Positions 52,073 through 61,154 of a stretch of 64,000 nucleotides of DNA are shown piece after piece (position 1 is the first letter of the stretch; every line of letters starts with the position of its first letter). The notes beneath the pieces are model-generated. The model was not told the DNA's origin. It did no database searches and saw only the letters and a list, made by a program, of their open reading frames with translations. The position numbers and the translations under genes were made by a program. Source of the stretch: Escherichia coli (GTDB lineage: Bacteria; Pseudomonadota; Gammaproteobacteria; Enterobacterales; Enterobacteriaceae); NCBI RefSeq assembly GCF_016026235.1, contig NZ_CP065613.1. One strand, written 5' to 3'.

Positions 52073-53191
52073 TTATTCTCCCCGTGAGTCAGCTTTATCT
52101 TTCTTTTGCTGACGACCCAGTTCACGCACCGCCATCACGCTGACACCGGCAACCAGCCCAACCACACCGCCGAGCAAACCAATAGCGCCTGCAGAGACGT
52201 TGCCGCCCTCTTTAGCGTTAACATCCGGTTTCTGTGAACGCGGAGTCTGATTTTCGACGTTGGCAAGCTGATGGATGCCTTTATGGAAGCCGATACCTTC
52301 TTCGTTACAGCCATAGCACGGGTGACCAATTGCCACCGGCCACACGCCGCCAACGTCGCAGAATTGCAGCGTTGAGCAGTTGCCGTAAGTTTCTGGCCCT
52401 TTACAGCCGAGGTGGTACAAGCACCAGCCTTCGCGGTGGCCTTCATCACCGAACTCTTTGGCAAAACGACCAGCATCGAAGTGCGGGCGACGTTCGCAGT
52501 GTTCGTGAATCAGACGGCCATAGGCGAAGGTCGGACGGTTTTTGTCATCCAGTTTCGGCGGTTTGCCGTAAGTGATGATGTGCGCAACGGTCGCGAGGAA
52601 GTTGTGCGGGTTCGGCGGGCAGCCCGGAATGTTGATAACGGTTTTGCCTGGCAGAACTTCTTGCAGGCTGACTGCGCCAGTTGGGTTAACTCCAGCTGCG
52701 GCAACACCGCCCCACGCAGAGCAGGAACCGATAGCGATAATGGCTGCTGCGCCTTCCGCCGCTTTGCGGATGTGATCCACAATCGGCTCACCGGCAACCA
52801 TGCAATAAATACCGTTATCTTTTAATGGGATGGAACCATCCACCACTAACACATACTGCCCTTTGTACTTCTCGAGAGCGTTATGTTTGTTCTCTTCGAC
52901 CTGATGACCGAAGGCGGCGGAAAGCACTTCGTGATACTCCAGAGAGATAGTCTCCAGCACGAGGTTTTCTACCGTTGGATGCGTTGCACGAAGCAGAGAT
53001 TCCGTACAACCGGTGCACTCCTGCGCGCCAATCCAGATAACTGGCGGACGCTGCGGGTTAGTAACCGATTCGGCCATCTCAGCAGCGGCTTTGCTACTTA
53101 ACCCCATGGTGGCGGCTAATGCTGCACAAAGCTTCATGAAATCACGACGGTTAATGCCGTGAGAATGGATGAGGGTGTTATCTCCAGTCAT
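52073..53191 (-). CDS. hybO: [NiFe] hydrogenase-2 small subunit
   Basis: Twin-arginine signal [15 protein letters not shown]; 372 aa. Confidence 0.9.
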
Positions 53192-53379
53192 TTATAGTTA
53201 TTCCGTTGCGAAGACCTGGCATATATTTTGCCTCAATCGCAAAATCAATAATGCGATCGATGCGCCATTTACCACACATTTATTATGGTTATCGATATCA
53301 TGATACTGCGGCGGGGCGCTAAAACGAAGGGAAGAAGCATTAGTGTAATTAATTAAAGCAAGATAATACGTATGTTTGA

Positions 53380-53667
53380 TCAATTTTCGAGGCGATAACC
53401 GGCCATAAAAAAGCGCAACGTAGAACAGGAATTATTCTCACGAAAGAAATCCATTACCATCTCTTTATCCAGTCCATAGCGGCGCGTCAGAATACCCGCT
53501 TCCCAGGCGCTAAGCTGGCGATCTCCGGTCTTTTCGTACATCCGGTGTGAGTAGCCTAATACAAAACCGCGTTTATAATCGGCACAGAATTTTGTCACAT
53601 TAACCGCACTGTCGGCATGCGTTGCTTTTAATCCCGCCATTAAGCCTTTACCAAAATGGTTATTCAT
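53380..53667 (-). CDS. yghW: small uncharacterised protein YghW
   Basis: 95-aa ORF upstream of the hyb operon. Confidence 0.65.
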
Positions 53668-58181: not shown

Positions 58182-58916
58182 TTATCCTGCACGTAATTTT
58201 TGTGCGACACGAACCGGATGCGCAGCGGCGCTGGCTTCCAGATCCAGGTCACGGCTTTGCAGCAACAATACCTGCGCTGCGACATCACCCAGCATCGCTT
58301 TAAAGCCGCCAATCTGACGCGCGAATACGTTATAGATAACGACCGCCGGAATCGCTGCCACCAGACCGATTGCCGTTGCTAACAGAGCTTCTGCGATACC
58401 CGGCGCAACGACTGCCAGGTTAGTGGTCTGCGTTTGCGCGATACCAATAAAGCTGTTCATGATGCCCCAGACCGTACCAAACAGACCAACGAACGGCGAA
58501 ATCGCGCCGATGGTTGCCAGATAGCCGTTACCGCGGCCCATTTGACGACCTACTGCGGCGACCCGACGCTCCAGACGGAAGCTGGTACGTTCTTTAATAC
58601 CTTCGTTATCGTCGCTGCCTTCTGACAGTTCCAGCTCATTCTGCGCTTCATTGAGCAAATGCAGGCTTAAGCTTTTGCTACCAAAATCAGCGGCGATATC
58701 GTTGGCCTGGTTTAAGGAACGCGCTTCAGCCAGCAGTTGCTGCTCGCGCTTAAGGCGACGCTTCTGATTGAAGAACTCTACGCTCTTACTGAAGAAGATT
58801 GCCCAGGTGACTACGGAGGCCAAAATAAGCCCAATCATCACGCACTTAACGACAATATCGGCGTGCTGATACATACCCCAGACGGAAAGGTCCGTCTGCA
58901 TTAAATTATTACCCAC
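58182..58916 (-). CDS. exbB: TonB-system biopolymer transport protein ExbB
   Basis: 244 aa (MGNNLMQTDLSVWGMYQHADIVVKCVMIGL). Confidence 0.9.
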   Translation of the reverse strand: MGNNLMQTDLSVWGMYQHADIVVKCVMIGLILASVVTWAIFFSKSVEFFNQKRRLKREQQLLAEARSLNQANDIAADFGSKSLSLHLLNEAQNELELSEGSDDNEGIKERTSFRLERRVAAVGRQMGRGNGYLATIGAISPFVGLFGTVWGIMNSFIGIAQTQTTNLAVVAPGIAEALLATAIGLVAAIPAVVIYNVFARQIGGFKAMLGDVAAQVLLLQSRDLDLEASAAAHPVRVAQKLRAG

Positions 58917-58949
58917 TGTGTATCTCCAGGACGCAAGTCACAAAATCTG

Positions 58950-58998
58950 CGCATAATAATATCAAAACGACGTCGAATTGATAGTCGTTCTCATTACT
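58950..58998 (-). promoter_or_regulatory. candidate Fur-box-like AT-rich operator upstream of exbB
   Basis: gcataataatatcaaaac...gaattgatagtcgttctcattac partially resembles the GATAATGATAATCATTATC consensus. Confidence 0.25.
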
Positions 58999-59133
58999 AT
59001 TTGCATACTGCCGTACCTTTGCTTTCTTTTCCTTGCGTTTACGCAGTAAAAAAGTCACCAGCACGCCATTTGCGAAAATTTTCTGCTTTATGCCAATTCT
59101 TCAGGATGCGCCCGCGAATATTCATGCTAGTTT

Positions 59134-59149
59134 AGACATCCAGACGTAT
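59134..59149 (+). promoter_or_regulatory. two tandem MetJ met-box-like octamers upstream of metC
   Basis: agacatcc + agacgtat, adjacent 8-mers close to the AGACGTCT consensus, about 20 bp upstream of the metC ATG. Confidence 0.45.
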
Positions 59150-59167
59150 AAAAACAGGAATCCCGAC

Positions 59168-60355
59168 ATGGCGGACAAAAAGCTTGATACTCAACTGGTG
59201 AATGCAGGACGCAGCAAAAAATACACTCTCGGCGCGGTAAATAGCGTGATTCAGCGCGCTTCTTCGCTGGTATTTGAGAGTATGGAAGCCAAAAAGCACG
59301 CGACGCGCAATCGCGCCAATGGCGAGTTGTTCTATGGACGGCGCGGAACGTTAACCCATTTTTCCTTACAACAAGCGATGTGTGAACTGGAAGGTGGCGC
59401 AGGCTGCGCGCTATTTCCCTGCGGGGCGGCAGCGGTTGCTAATTCGATTCTTGCTTTTGTCGAACAGGGCGATCATGTGTTGATGACCAACACCGCCTAT
59501 GAACCGAGTCAGGATTTCTGTAGCAAAATCCTCAGCAAACTGGGCGTAACGACATCGTGGTTTGATCCGCTGATTGGTGCCGATATCGTTAAGCATCTGC
59601 AGCCAAACACTAAAATCGTGTTTCTGGAATCGCCGGGTTCCATCACTATGGAAGTCCACGACGTTCCGGCGATTGTTGCCGCCGTGCGCAGTGTGGTGCC
59701 GGATGCCATCATTATGATCGACAACACCTGGGCAGCCGGTGTGCTGTTTAAGGCGCTGGATTTTGGCATCGATGTTTCTATTCAAGCCGCCACCAAATAT
59801 CTGGTTGGGCATTCAGATGCGATGATTGGCACTGCCGTGTGCAATGCCCGTTGCTGGGAGCAGCTACGGGAAAATGCCTATCTGATGGGCCAGATGGTCG
59901 ATGCCGATACCGCCTATATAACCAGCCGTGGCCTGCGCACATTAGGTGTGCGTTTGCGTCAACATCATGAAAGCAGTCTGAAAGTGGCTGAATGGCTGGC
60001 AGAACATCCGCAAGTTGCGCGAGTTAACCACCCTGCTCTGCCTGGCAGTAAAGGACACGAATTCTGGAAACGAGACTTTACAGGCAGCAGCGGGCTATTT
60101 TCCTTTGTGCTTAAGAAAAAACTCAATGATGAAGAGCTGGCGAACTATCTGGATAACTTCAGTTTATTCAGCATGGCCTACTCGTGGGGCGGGTATGAAT
60201 CGTTGATCCTGGCAAATCAACCAGAACATATCGCCGCCATTCGCCCACAAGGCGAGATCGATTTTAGCGGGACCTTGATTCGCCTGCATATTGGTCTGGA
60301 AGATGTCGACGATCTGATTGCCGATCTGGACGCCGGTTTTGCGCGGATTGTATAA
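59168..60355 (+). CDS. metC: cystathionine beta-lyase
   Basis: Start at [20 protein letters not shown] (395 aa); the track ORF has a 45-codon upstream extension. Confidence 0.9.
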
Positions 60356-60494
60356 CATTGCCACTTTTGGACAATTTTGCAGACATTTTATTGTGAAAAG
60401 TCTTAAATTGTTGCGTCCGGGATCAAGGCGTCCCGGACGATTCAGGAGTACAATAGGCAGATAAAGGCTTAAACGCTGTTCCACAGGAAAGTCC

Positions 60495-61154
60495 ATGGCT
60501 GTTATTCAAGATATCATCGCTGCGCTCTGGCAACACGACTTTGCCGCGCTGGCGGATCCTCATATTGTTAGCGTTGTTTACTTTGTCATGTTTGCCACGC
60601 TGTTTTTAGAAAACGGCCTGCTGCCCGCCTCATTTTTGCCAGGCGACAGCTTGTTGATACTGGCAGGCGCATTGATTGCCCAGGGGGTTATGGATTTTCT
60701 GCCTACGATTGCGATTCTGACCGCCGCAGCAAGTCTGGGCTGCTGGCTAAGTTATATTCAGGGGCGCTGGTTAGGGAATACCAAAACGGTGAAAGGCTGG
60801 CTGGCACAGCTTCCTGCTAAATATCATCAGCGCGCCACCTGCATGTTTGACCGCCACGGTCTGCTGGCGCTGCTGGCTGGACGTTTTCTTGCATTTGTCC
60901 GTACGCTGCTGCCAACCATGGCGGGAATTTCCGGTCTGCCAAACCGCCGTTTCCAGTTTTTCAACTGGTTAAGCGGATTGCTGTGGGTCAGCGTGGTAAC
61001 CAGTTTCGGCTATGCCTTAAGTATGATTCCGTTCGTTAAACGCCATGAAGATCAGGTAATGACGTTCCTGATGATCCTGCCAATTGCCTTGTTAACCGCT
61101 GGCTTGTTAGGCACGCTGTTTGTGGTGATTAAAAAAAAATACTGTAACGCCTGA
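60495..61154 (+). CDS. yghB: DedA-family inner membrane protein
   Basis: 219-aa polytopic protein. Confidence 0.85.

What the first reader, a model, noticed from the sequence alone, without database searches (positions are those of the whole stretch)
58950..59149. exbB-metC divergent spacer carries candidate Fur and MetJ operators
A Fur-box-like AT-rich element lies upstream of exbB and two tandem met-box-like octamers lie just upstream of metC. Both regulations are established for these genes; the sites here are assigned by eye.
Basis: partly seen in the sequence, partly recalled or inferred. Interest (0 to 1): 0.2.

Follow-up and report, generated by a model that had tools for sequence, protein, structure and literature searches.

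The report
Known Fur and MetJ operators, exbB-metC spacer
The gap between the divergent E. coli genes exbB and metC carries a real iron-repressor (Fur) site and a real methionine-repressor (MetJ) site, both already published, so the finding is correct but ordinary.

Summary
The window is E. coli. The 251-bp exbB-metC spacer (58917..59167) is 100% identical to K-12 and present in 5422 of 5426 complete genomes.

Both claimed operators are real, score well above threshold, and coincide with published sites.
- MetJ: two tandem met boxes, AGACATCC and AGACGTAT, at 59134..59149. They score 18.92 bits with the published matrix (threshold 12.58). This is the only qualifying site in the 64 kb and matches the published K-12 metC operator exactly.
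- Fur: ATTGATAGTCGTTCTCATT at 58977..58995. It scores 20.0 bits with a matrix I built from 17 other K-12 Fur sites, the top hit of the window (next 13.7). Its centre, 58986, equals the gel-shift-confirmed site of Chen et al. 2007.

Both are the most conserved blocks of the spacer across Enterobacteriaceae (identity 0.97 and 0.93, against 0.3-0.5 in the unconstrained stretches).

One correction. The AT-rich stretch where the finding starts (58950..58968) is not a Fur box (0.2 bits). Its substitution pattern is that of an extended -10 element, TGnTATnAT, for exbB.

One extra. An unassigned conserved dyad, TTGCG-N4-CGCAG (59033..59046), sits at a fixed distance from exbB and under a published weak FNR ChIP-seq peak.

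Verdict: confirmed, already known, low interest.

The parts
58182..58916 (-). exbB coding sequence (GTG start at 58916), 244 aa; the Fur-repressed gene
   Evidence: ORF list. Annotated as exbB in K-12 NC_000913.3 at 3151250..3151984.
58953..58967 (-). Candidate extended -10 of the exbB promoter (inferred). On the - strand it reads TTTTGaTATtAT, with the hexamer at 58961..58956 and an inferred +1 near 58949. This is the AT-rich run at the left edge of the finding.
   Evidence: The Fur matrix gives 0.2 bits here. Across 19 Enterobacteriaceae, TTTTG, TAT and AT are invariant 19/19, while the two positions that are free in a TGnTATnAT element vary. A sigma70 ChIP-seq peak at U00096.2 3150014, window 58924, lies nearby. 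No TSS data could be obtained.
58977..58995 (.). Main Fur box ATTGATAGTCGTTCTCATT (9-1-9 dyad, centre 58986), about -28..-46 of the inferred exbB promoter
   Evidence: 20.0 bits, the top hit in the 64 kb. The centre equals Chen 2007 coordinate 3150076, -70 from the exbB start, 19.1 bits, gel-shift positive. Identity is 0.97 across 18 other Enterobacteriaceae. The box is essentially invariant, ATTGATAGTnGTTmTCATT, in almost all Enterobacterales loci that keep the metC-exbB arrangement; two Pantoea loci and Xenorhabdus/Photorhabdus differ in the first one or two bases.
58989..59007 (.). Weak second Fur box, 12 bp from the main one. Together with it, this spans the 31-bp Fur cluster 58977..59007.
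   Evidence: 4.9 bits. Chen 2007 reports 3 walkers over 31 bp. ChIP-exo Fur sites in MG1655 (3150091..3150113, window 59001..59023) and W3110 (3150725..3150737, window 59001..59013) overlap its upstream edge.
59029..59053 (.). Unassigned conserved dyad ('block B'): TTCCTTGCG-TTTA-CGCAGTAAAA, core 59033..59046, centre 59039.5
   Evidence: Identity 0.81 against 0.3-0.5 in the flanks. The exact TGCG-N4-CGCA is found in 21 of 28 Enterobacteriaceae-type spacers, always 117-120 nt from the exbB start, while the distance to metC varies from 109 to 154. The FNR ChIP-seq approximate peak centre, 3150130, is window 59040. The FNR-type matrix gives only 7.3 bits, a score reached by chance about once per kb.
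59125..59133 (+). Candidate extended -10 of the metC promoter (inferred): TGcTAGTTT, inferred +1 near 59140
   Evidence: The column pattern is T17 G18 n(free) T17 A17 r T19 y T18 across 19 genomes. No TSS data could be obtained.
59134..59149 (.). MetJ operator: two tandem met boxes, AGACATCC (59134..59141) and AGACGTAT (59142..59149), about -6..+10 of the inferred metC promoter
   Evidence: 8.96 + 9.96 = 18.92 bits, the only qualifying site in the window. It is identical to the published K-12 operator. MetJ gel shift on this intergenic DNA is reported, as is SAM-dependent binding of two dimers. Identity is 0.93 across Enterobacteriaceae.
59168..60355 (+). metC coding sequence (ATG at 59168), 395 aa; the MetJ-repressed gene
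   Evidence: ORF list and translation. K-12 annotation places metC at 3152236..3153423.

Best explanation
The spacer holds two independent, back-to-back promoter-operator units, both already described for E. coli K-12.

(1) exbBD unit. Fe2+-Fur dimers bind a cluster centred on the 19-bp dyad at 58977..58995 and extending to about 59007. This lies over the -35 region and upstream part of an extended -10 promoter whose hexamer is at 58961..58956 on the minus strand. Binding therefore excludes RNA polymerase when iron is sufficient and releases exbBD when iron is scarce.

(2) metC unit. Two MetJ dimers carrying S-adenosylmethionine bind cooperatively to the two contiguous 8-bp met boxes at 59134..59149. 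These begin directly after the metC extended -10 and cover the inferred start point, so they block initiation when methionine and SAM are plentiful.

The two operators are 138 bp apart and do not cross-regulate.

What is shown: the identity, score, position and conservation of the sites (here), and protein binding and regulation (literature). What is inferred: the exact -10, -35 and +1 positions, and hence the occlusion geometry.
For: Sequence identity:
- The spacer is 100% identical to K-12 and O157:H7 and is found in 5422 of 5426 complete E. coli genomes.

Fur:
- A matrix built by EM from 17 footprinted or gel-shifted K-12 sites, with exbB excluded, has the consensus AATGATAATnATTATCATT.
- It gives 20.0 bits at 58977..58995, rank 1 in the window, with the next best at 13.7. 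This is within the leave-one-out range of validated sites.
- Chen et al. report the same coordinate, 19.1 bits and a positive gel shift, and a negative shift for the exbD 'box'.
- Fur ChIP-exo peaks in MG1655 and W3110 lie at 59001..59023.
- exbB and exbD are derepressed in fur deletion mutants of all nine strains tested.

MetJ:
- The published matrix reproduces 18.92 bits, and the published operator string and distance are identical.
- A gel shift on this intergenic DNA is reported, and exbB is not MetJ-regulated in vivo.
- Two dimers bind an 18-bp metC duplex with an EC50 of 96 nM with SAM against 2900 nM without.

Conservation and promoters:
- The Fur box (identity 0.97) and the met boxes (0.93) are the best-conserved blocks of the spacer, and both are intact in the most divergent E. 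coli spacer.
- Both candidate -10 elements show invariant TG and TA..T positions with free 'n' positions.
Against: - No transcription start data could be retrieved. The simple promoter scan found nothing, and my hexamer scoring is not above shuffled controls. The occlusion geometry therefore rests on conservation patterns only.
- The ChIP-exo Fur intervals (59001..59023) abut the main box rather than centre on it.
- The classical-consensus match is only 13/19.
- The metC repression ratio itself is given only in a figure I could not read.
Confidence: 0.93

Rival explanations
1. The AT-rich run at the left edge of the finding (58950..58968, CGCATAATAATATCAAAAC) is the Fur operator of exbB.
For: It is AT-rich (0.71), lies upstream of exbB, is conserved (0.88), and superficially resembles GATAAT repeats.
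Against: The Fur matrix gives 0.2 bits, and it is not among the best matches to the classical consensus. The published site is centred at 58986, not here. Its substitution pattern (invariant TTTTG, TAT and AT; free -13 and -9 positions) is that of an extended -10.
Confidence: 0.04
2. The matches are chance resemblances in an AT-rich spacer, with no operator function at these exact positions.
For: Consensus counting is weak: 13/19, with 20 equal or better places in the window. Short octamers recur by chance.
Against: Both are the unique top-scoring sites in 64 kb, and 0 of 5000 simulated spacers reach either score. The positions are identical to published bound sites. Both are near-invariant across genera while the flanks diverge to 0.3-0.5 identity.
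Confidence: 0.01
3. The spacer is one shared bidirectional control region in which each repressor affects both divergent genes.
For: The promoters are divergent in a short 251-bp spacer. MetJ shifts the whole intergenic fragment, which is also the exbB upstream fragment.
Against: [quoted passage not shown] The operators are 138 bp apart, each next to its own -10. Met boxes are absent from Erwinia, Pantoea, Dickeya and Yersinia spacers, which keep the Fur box.
Confidence: 0.04
4. A third regulator also acts here. The conserved dyad TTGCG-N4-CGCAG (59033..59046) would be an upstream operator of the exbB promoter, bound by FNR or by an as yet unassigned dimeric factor, possibly linked to the reported anaerobic control of exbB.
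For: Conservation is 0.81 against 0.3-0.5 in the flanks. The spacing to exbB and the Fur box is fixed at 117-120 nt, while the spacing to metC is variable. The arms are conserved and the centre is partly free. The FNR ChIP-seq approximate peak centre is window 59040 and the summit 59060, and there is an earlier FNR ChIP-chip peak. exbB is reported to be more repressed anaerobically.
Against: The FNR-type score of 7.3 bits is at chance level, about 1 per kb, and the published PatSer ln p is only -5.72. The original study found no motif and no FNR-dependent expression change. The peak was called by 2 of 3 ChIP-seq peak callers only. The non-FNR bases (GCG rather than GAT) are themselves conserved, which argues for another protein. 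No regulon partner site was found in the loci held.
Confidence: 0.35

Closest known systems
E. coli K-12 exbB Fur binding-site cluster (Chen et al. 2007, NAR 35:6762, PMC2189734; first noted by Eick-Helmerich & Braun 1989)
   Same: Same DNA. The centre at U00096.2 3150076 is window 58986, -70 from the exbB start. The score is 19.1 bits in their matrix and 20.0 in mine. The three-walker cluster spans 31 bp, 58977..59007.
   Different: Nothing differs in sequence. The ChIP-exo intervals (PMC10164565) sit about 6-28 bp further upstream than the main box.
E. coli K-12 metC MetJ operator (Augustus & Spicer 2011, PMC3228920; described as the shortest natural MetJ operator in PMC2650099)
   Same: The 16-bp string agacatccagacgtat, the two boxes, the 18.92 bits and the 18 nt to the start codon are all identical.
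   Different: Nothing differs.
Canonical Fur-repressed promoters such as fepA-fes, fhuA, cirA and tonB
   Same: A 9-1-9 dyad overlapping core promoter elements, with overlapping secondary sites at 6- or 12-bp offsets.
   Different: The exbB box has G at two positions where the matrix consensus has A (ATTGATAGTCGTTCTCATT against AATGATAATnATTATCATT). Its score is mid-to-low in the range: rank 12 of 18.
FNR/CRP-family 5-4-5 dyads (TTGAT-N4-ATCAA), for block B only
   Same: The same 5-4-5 architecture, TTG...CA retained, and an FNR ChIP peak centred on it.
   Different: Only 5 of 10 consensus bases match, the score is at chance level, and no FNR-dependent expression has been reported.

Membership tests
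Fur operator (Fur box, 19-bp 9-1-9 dyad) | Information-matrix score within the range of experimentally validated E. coli Fur sites | tested here: met
   20.0 bits (19.8 with the fixed-alignment matrix). The leave-one-out scores of 17 validated sites have a median of 21.4 and a minimum of 7.7. exbB was never in the training set.
Fur operator (Fur box, 19-bp 9-1-9 dyad) | Score exceeds the genomic and compositional background | tested here: met
   Rank 1 of 63,982 positions in the window, with the next best at 13.7 bits. 0 of 5000 Markov-1 spacers reach it.
Fur operator (Fur box, 19-bp 9-1-9 dyad) | Overlaps the core promoter of the repressed gene | tested here: inconclusive
   The box covers about -28..-46 of an extended -10 promoter inferred from conservation. 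No TSS data were obtained, and the promoter scans are not significant.
Fur operator (Fur box, 19-bp 9-1-9 dyad) | Direct Fur binding and Fur/iron-dependent expression | not testable with these tools
   From the literature only: positive gel shift (PMC2189734); ChIP-exo in MG1655 and W3110, and derepression of exbB/exbD in fur deletion mutants of nine strains (PMC10164565).
Fur operator (Fur box, 19-bp 9-1-9 dyad) | Conserved in orthologous promoters | tested here: met
   ATTGATAGTnGTTmTCATT is present in almost all Enterobacterales loci that keep the metC-exbB arrangement. The exceptions are two Pantoea loci and Xenorhabdus/Photorhabdus, which differ in the first one or two bases. Identity is 0.97.
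MetJ operator (tandem met boxes, consensus AGACGTCT) | At least two contiguous 8-bp boxes, each at least one quarter of the consensus score, with a total at least equal to the consensus score (12.58 bits) | tested here: met
   8.96 + 9.96 = 18.92 bits. The neighbouring octamers are negative (-9.43 and -8.70), so there are exactly two boxes.
MetJ operator (tandem met boxes, consensus AGACGTCT) | Located close upstream of a methionine-pathway gene (typically within about 75 bp of the start codon) | tested here: met
   18 nt before the metC ATG.
MetJ operator (tandem met boxes, consensus AGACGTCT) | SAM-dependent MetJ binding and MetJ-dependent repression | not testable with these tools
   From the literature: gel shift and reporter assay (PMC3228920); two dimers on the metC duplex, EC50 96 nM with SAM against 2900 nM without (PMC2650099).
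MetJ operator (tandem met boxes, consensus AGACGTCT) | Conserved in orthologous promoters | tested here: met
   Present in nearly all Enterobacteriaceae sampled (identity 0.93) and absent from Erwiniaceae, Dickeya and Yersinia, as the published survey also found.
FNR site (TTGAT-N4-ATCAA), considered for block B at 59033..59046 | Matrix or consensus match above background | tested here: not met
   7.3 bits, with 63 equal or better positions in 64 kb. The training median is 12.6. The published PatSer ln p is -5.72.
FNR site (TTGAT-N4-ATCAA), considered for block B at 59033..59046 | In vivo FNR occupancy and FNR-dependent expression | not testable with these tools
   From the literature: ChIP-seq approximate centre at window 59040, called by 2 of 3 peak callers, plus an earlier ChIP-chip peak; no FNR-dependent expression change.

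The most novel reading that the evidence does not exclude
The conserved dyad TTGCG-N4-CGCAG at 59033..59046 is a functional third operator of the exbBD promoter. It is positionally locked about 53 bp (five helical turns) upstream of the Fur box. It would be bound either weakly by FNR or by a regulator not yet assigned to this locus, adding an oxygen- or other signal-dependent layer to TonB-system expression in Enterobacteriaceae.
Probability: 0.3. Interest if true: 0.3.

Novelty: already known. Interest (0 to 1): 0.1.

Why it matters
It matters little beyond annotation quality. Both operators are textbook-level and already in the literature for K-12. The useful outputs are exact coordinates for the window, a correction (the AT-rich run at the left edge is the exbB extended -10, not the Fur box), and a demonstration that matrix scoring plus phylogenetic footprinting recovers the published sites cleanly. 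The one item with some forward value is the unassigned conserved dyad between the two operators. It coincides with a published weak FNR ChIP-seq peak and could explain the reported oxygen effect on exbB.

Tried and rejected
- Rfam scan of the spacer and its flanks: no RNA family.
- Simple promoter/terminator scan: nothing found. My own hexamer scoring was not above shuffled controls, so promoters were assigned from conservation patterns instead.
- Transcription start data: the classic papers (PMC177240, PMC210325, PMC322971, PMC4288677, PMC4167408) are not held. Supplements of PMC3415461, PMC4161252 and PMC4782308 had no usable rows. Supplement look-ups are now exhausted.
- Classical 19-bp consensus counting: too unspecific.
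- Block B compared from memory with PurR, IscR type 2, MetR, CpxR, PhoP, LexA, EvgA and mar-box patterns: none fits in spacing or orientation. These comparisons rest on my own knowledge and were not computed.
- Block B as an FNR site: the score is at chance level.
- Search for a block-B-like dyad in 13 other K-12 Fur-regulated promoter loci: none found.
- YeiE, a LysR-type factor linked to iron homeostasis (PMC6237786): exbB is not mentioned in the main text, and the idea is untested.
- An in-frame N-terminal extension of metC from TTG 59033: rejected, because the indels in relatives are not multiples of three.

Full report
**Locus**

The window is Escherichia coli. The 401 bases around the finding are 100% identical to K-12 and O157:H7 strains and occur in 5422 of 5426 complete genomes. 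exbB runs on the minus strand from 58916 (GTG) to 58182. metC starts at ATG 59168 on the plus strand. The spacer is therefore 58917..59167, 251 bp, as in K-12, where exbB is 3151250..3151984 and metC starts at 3152236 in NC_000913.3. Anchoring on the exbB start gives window = U00096.2 coordinate - 3,091,090. I used this to place published coordinates. Rfam finds no RNA family here.

**MetJ**

Augustus & Spicer (PMC3228920) publish a met-box weight matrix and thresholds: each box must score at least one quarter of the consensus, and the site total must at least equal the consensus, 12.58 bits.
- Applied to the window, the matrix gives AGACATCC (59134..59141, 8.96 bits) and AGACGTAT (59142..59149, 9.96 bits). 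The octamers on either side are strongly negative.
- The total is 18.92 bits. This is the only site in 64 kb that passes the thresholds, and none of 5000 Markov-1 simulated spacers reaches it.
- Their Table S1 lists, for K-12 metC, exactly 'agacatccagacgtat': 2 boxes, 18.92 bits, 18 nt from the start.
- They also report a MetJ gel shift on this intergenic DNA and state that exbB, which shares it, is not MetJ-regulated in vivo.
- A second paper calls metC the shortest natural MetJ operator. It binds two dimers, with an EC50 of 96 nM with SAM against 2900 nM without.

**Fur**

No published matrix was available as numbers, so I built one. I fetched 17 K-12 Fur sites that Chen et al. (PMC2189734) list as footprinted or otherwise supported, leaving exbB out. 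I then ran a palindromic EM for a 19-mer.
- The result has the consensus AATGATAATnATTATCATT and 20.9 bits, and it aligns on their coordinates for most sites.
- Scanning the window, the best hit of all 63,982 positions is ATTGATAGTCGTTCTCATT at 58977..58995, with 20.0 bits. The next best anywhere is 13.7 bits. None of 5000 simulated spacers reaches it.
- Leave-one-out scores of the training sites have a median of 21.4 and a minimum of 7.7, so exbB is an ordinary validated-strength site.
- Its centre, 58986, equals Chen's coordinate 3150076: -70 from the exbB start, 19.1 bits, 3 walkers over 31 bp, gel-shift positive. The consensus-predicted exbD 'box' was negative.
- A weak second box (4.9 bits) at 58989..59007 completes a 31-bp cluster.
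- Fur ChIP-exo intervals in MG1655 (3150091..3150113) and W3110 (3150725..3150737; exbB start 3150640) both map to 59001..59023, at the upstream edge of that cluster.
- exbB and exbD belong to the Fur core regulon and are derepressed in fur deletion mutants of all nine strains tested.
- Counting matches to the classical consensus is much less informative. The best is 13/19 at 58980..58998, and 20 window positions score as well.

**The AT-rich run at the left edge of the finding**

The stretch 58948..58968 scores 0.2 bits with the Fur matrix, so it is not the Fur box. Read on the exbB strand it is TTTTGATATTAT.
- In 19 Enterobacteriaceae spacers, TTTTG, TAT and AT are invariant. The base after TG and the fourth hexamer base vary freely. 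This is the signature of an extended -10 element, TGnTATnAT.
- With the hexamer at 58961..58956, the inferred start is near 58949. The main Fur box then covers about -28..-46.
- A published sigma70 ChIP-seq peak (3150014, window 58924) is nearby.

On the metC side the same pattern is seen. TG is conserved, the next base is free, and TArTyT is conserved at 59125..59133. This implies a start near 59140, so the met boxes span about -6..+10.

These promoter assignments are inferences. I could not retrieve mapped start sites, and hexamer scoring is not significant.

**Phylogenetic footprint**

A scan of one genome per species with ExbB returned 80 loci. metC is found divergently upstream of exbB in most of the Enterobacterales loci.
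- The Fur box ATTGATAGTnGTTmTCATT is essentially invariant from Escherichia to Serratia, about 70 nt from the exbB start in Enterobacteriaceae. In Yersinia and Providencia it is a slightly stronger variant, ATTGATAGTAATTATCATT. Xenorhabdus and Photorhabdus have TTTGATAGTAATTATCATT, and two Pantoea loci differ in the first two bases.
- Met boxes are kept in nearly all Enterobacteriaceae but are absent from Erwinia, Pantoea, Dickeya and Yersinia. Serratia has different boxes further upstream. This agrees with the published count of 81 of 119 Enterobacterales metC genes with met boxes.
- In an alignment of 19 Enterobacteriaceae spacers, identity to the window is 0.97 for the Fur box and 0.93 for the met boxes. 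It is 0.88 for the exbB -10 block and 0.3-0.5 in the unconstrained stretches.
- The most divergent E. coli spacer (95% identity) keeps all of these elements intact.

**An extra, unassigned element**

A third conserved block appears at 59029..59053. It is TTCCTTGCG-TTTA-CGCAGTAAAA, a dyad centred at 59039.5, with identity 0.81.
- The exact core TGCG-N4-CGCA is present in 21 of 28 Enterobacteriaceae-type spacers. It is always 117-120 nt from the exbB start, although its distance to metC ranges from 109 to 154. This ties it to the exbB side.
- Two independent studies report FNR ChIP signal in this spacer. Grainger et al. found a ChIP-chip peak at 3150195 with no motif. Myers et al. found a ChIP-seq approximate centre at 3150130, window 59040, and a summit at 3150150, window 59060. 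That peak was called by 2 of 3 ChIP-seq peak callers, has a PWM ln p of only -5.72, and comes with no FNR-dependent expression change. The authors suggest that Fur masks FNR regulation at this operon.
- An FNR-type matrix built from Grainger's sites gives 7.3 bits on the dyad. It is the best in the spacer, but a score reached about once per kb by chance.
- The non-FNR bases of the arms are themselves conserved.

I therefore leave the binder open: weak FNR site or another dimeric factor. No similar dyad occurs in the other Fur promoter fragments held.

**Verdict**

Everything claimed is already published for K-12, so the novelty is 'already known' and the interest is low. The only additions are the reassignment of the AT-rich run to the exbB extended -10 and the unassigned conserved dyad.

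Noticed in passing
window 59029..59053 (core 59033..59046): Conserved dyad TTGCG-N4-CGCAG with TTC/AAAA flanks, unassigned. It lies at a fixed 117-120 nt from the exbB start across Enterobacteriaceae and coincides with the published FNR ChIP-seq approximate peak centre (window 59040). The FNR-matrix score is only at chance level.
   Followed up: partly
window 59074..59091: A moderately conserved A/T tract (identity 0.68) containing the perfect 10-bp palindrome GAAAATTTTC, about 50-65 nt upstream of the inferred metC start. It could be an UP-like element or a bending site. It does not fit the MetR TGAA-N5-TTCA spacing (that comparison is from memory).
   Followed up: no
RefSeq records hit by window 58850..59250 (e.g. 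NC_007779.1 3149906..3150640; NZ_CP027437.1): PGAP/RefSeq names the exbB product 'tol-pal system-associated acyl-CoA thioesterase', while NC_000913.3 names the same protein 'Ton complex subunit ExbB'. This looks like a propagated misnaming.
   Followed up: no
window 53278..53296 and 53366..53389 (upstream of hybO, which is 52073..53191 on the minus strand): The second-best Fur-matrix hit of the window (ATTTATTATGGTTATCGAT, 13.7 bits) lies in the hybO upstream region. The FNR 24-mer published by Grainger et al. lies at 53366..53389. Published Fur ChIP-exo also lists a hybO intergenic peak.
   Followed up: partly
L035 (Kluyvera), L037 (Pseudocitrobacter), L059 (Mangrovibacter): about 98-104 nt upstream of the exbB start: These genera carry a strong CRP/FNR-like dyad between the Fur box and block B (e.g. 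ATTGACCTAAATCACA, 16.3 bits with the FNR-type matrix). E. coli lacks it, so this is a lineage-specific extra site.
   Followed up: no
L061-L081 (Serratia, Yersinia, Rouxiella, Providencia, Xenorhabdus, Photorhabdus): The distance from the metC start to the part of exbB that aligns with E. coli ExbB is 470-770 bp. This is consistent with the long N-terminal ExbB extension described for Serratia. The Fur box is still present, often with a strong second box 6 bp away (up to 18.4 bits). Serratia has met boxes at a different position, 60-73 nt from the metC ATG.
   Followed up: partly
window 59033..59167: The metC reading frame stays open for 45 codons upstream of the ATG, back to a TTG at 59033. 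Indels in relatives are not multiples of three, so this is not a conserved extension.
   Followed up: yes
window 60491..60514 (start of yghB): The published FNR ChIP-chip motif GTCCATGGCTGTTATTCAAGATAT overlaps the yghB start codon (60495). The yqhC/yqhD spacer further on also has published FNR and Fur (W3110) ChIP peaks.
   Followed up: no
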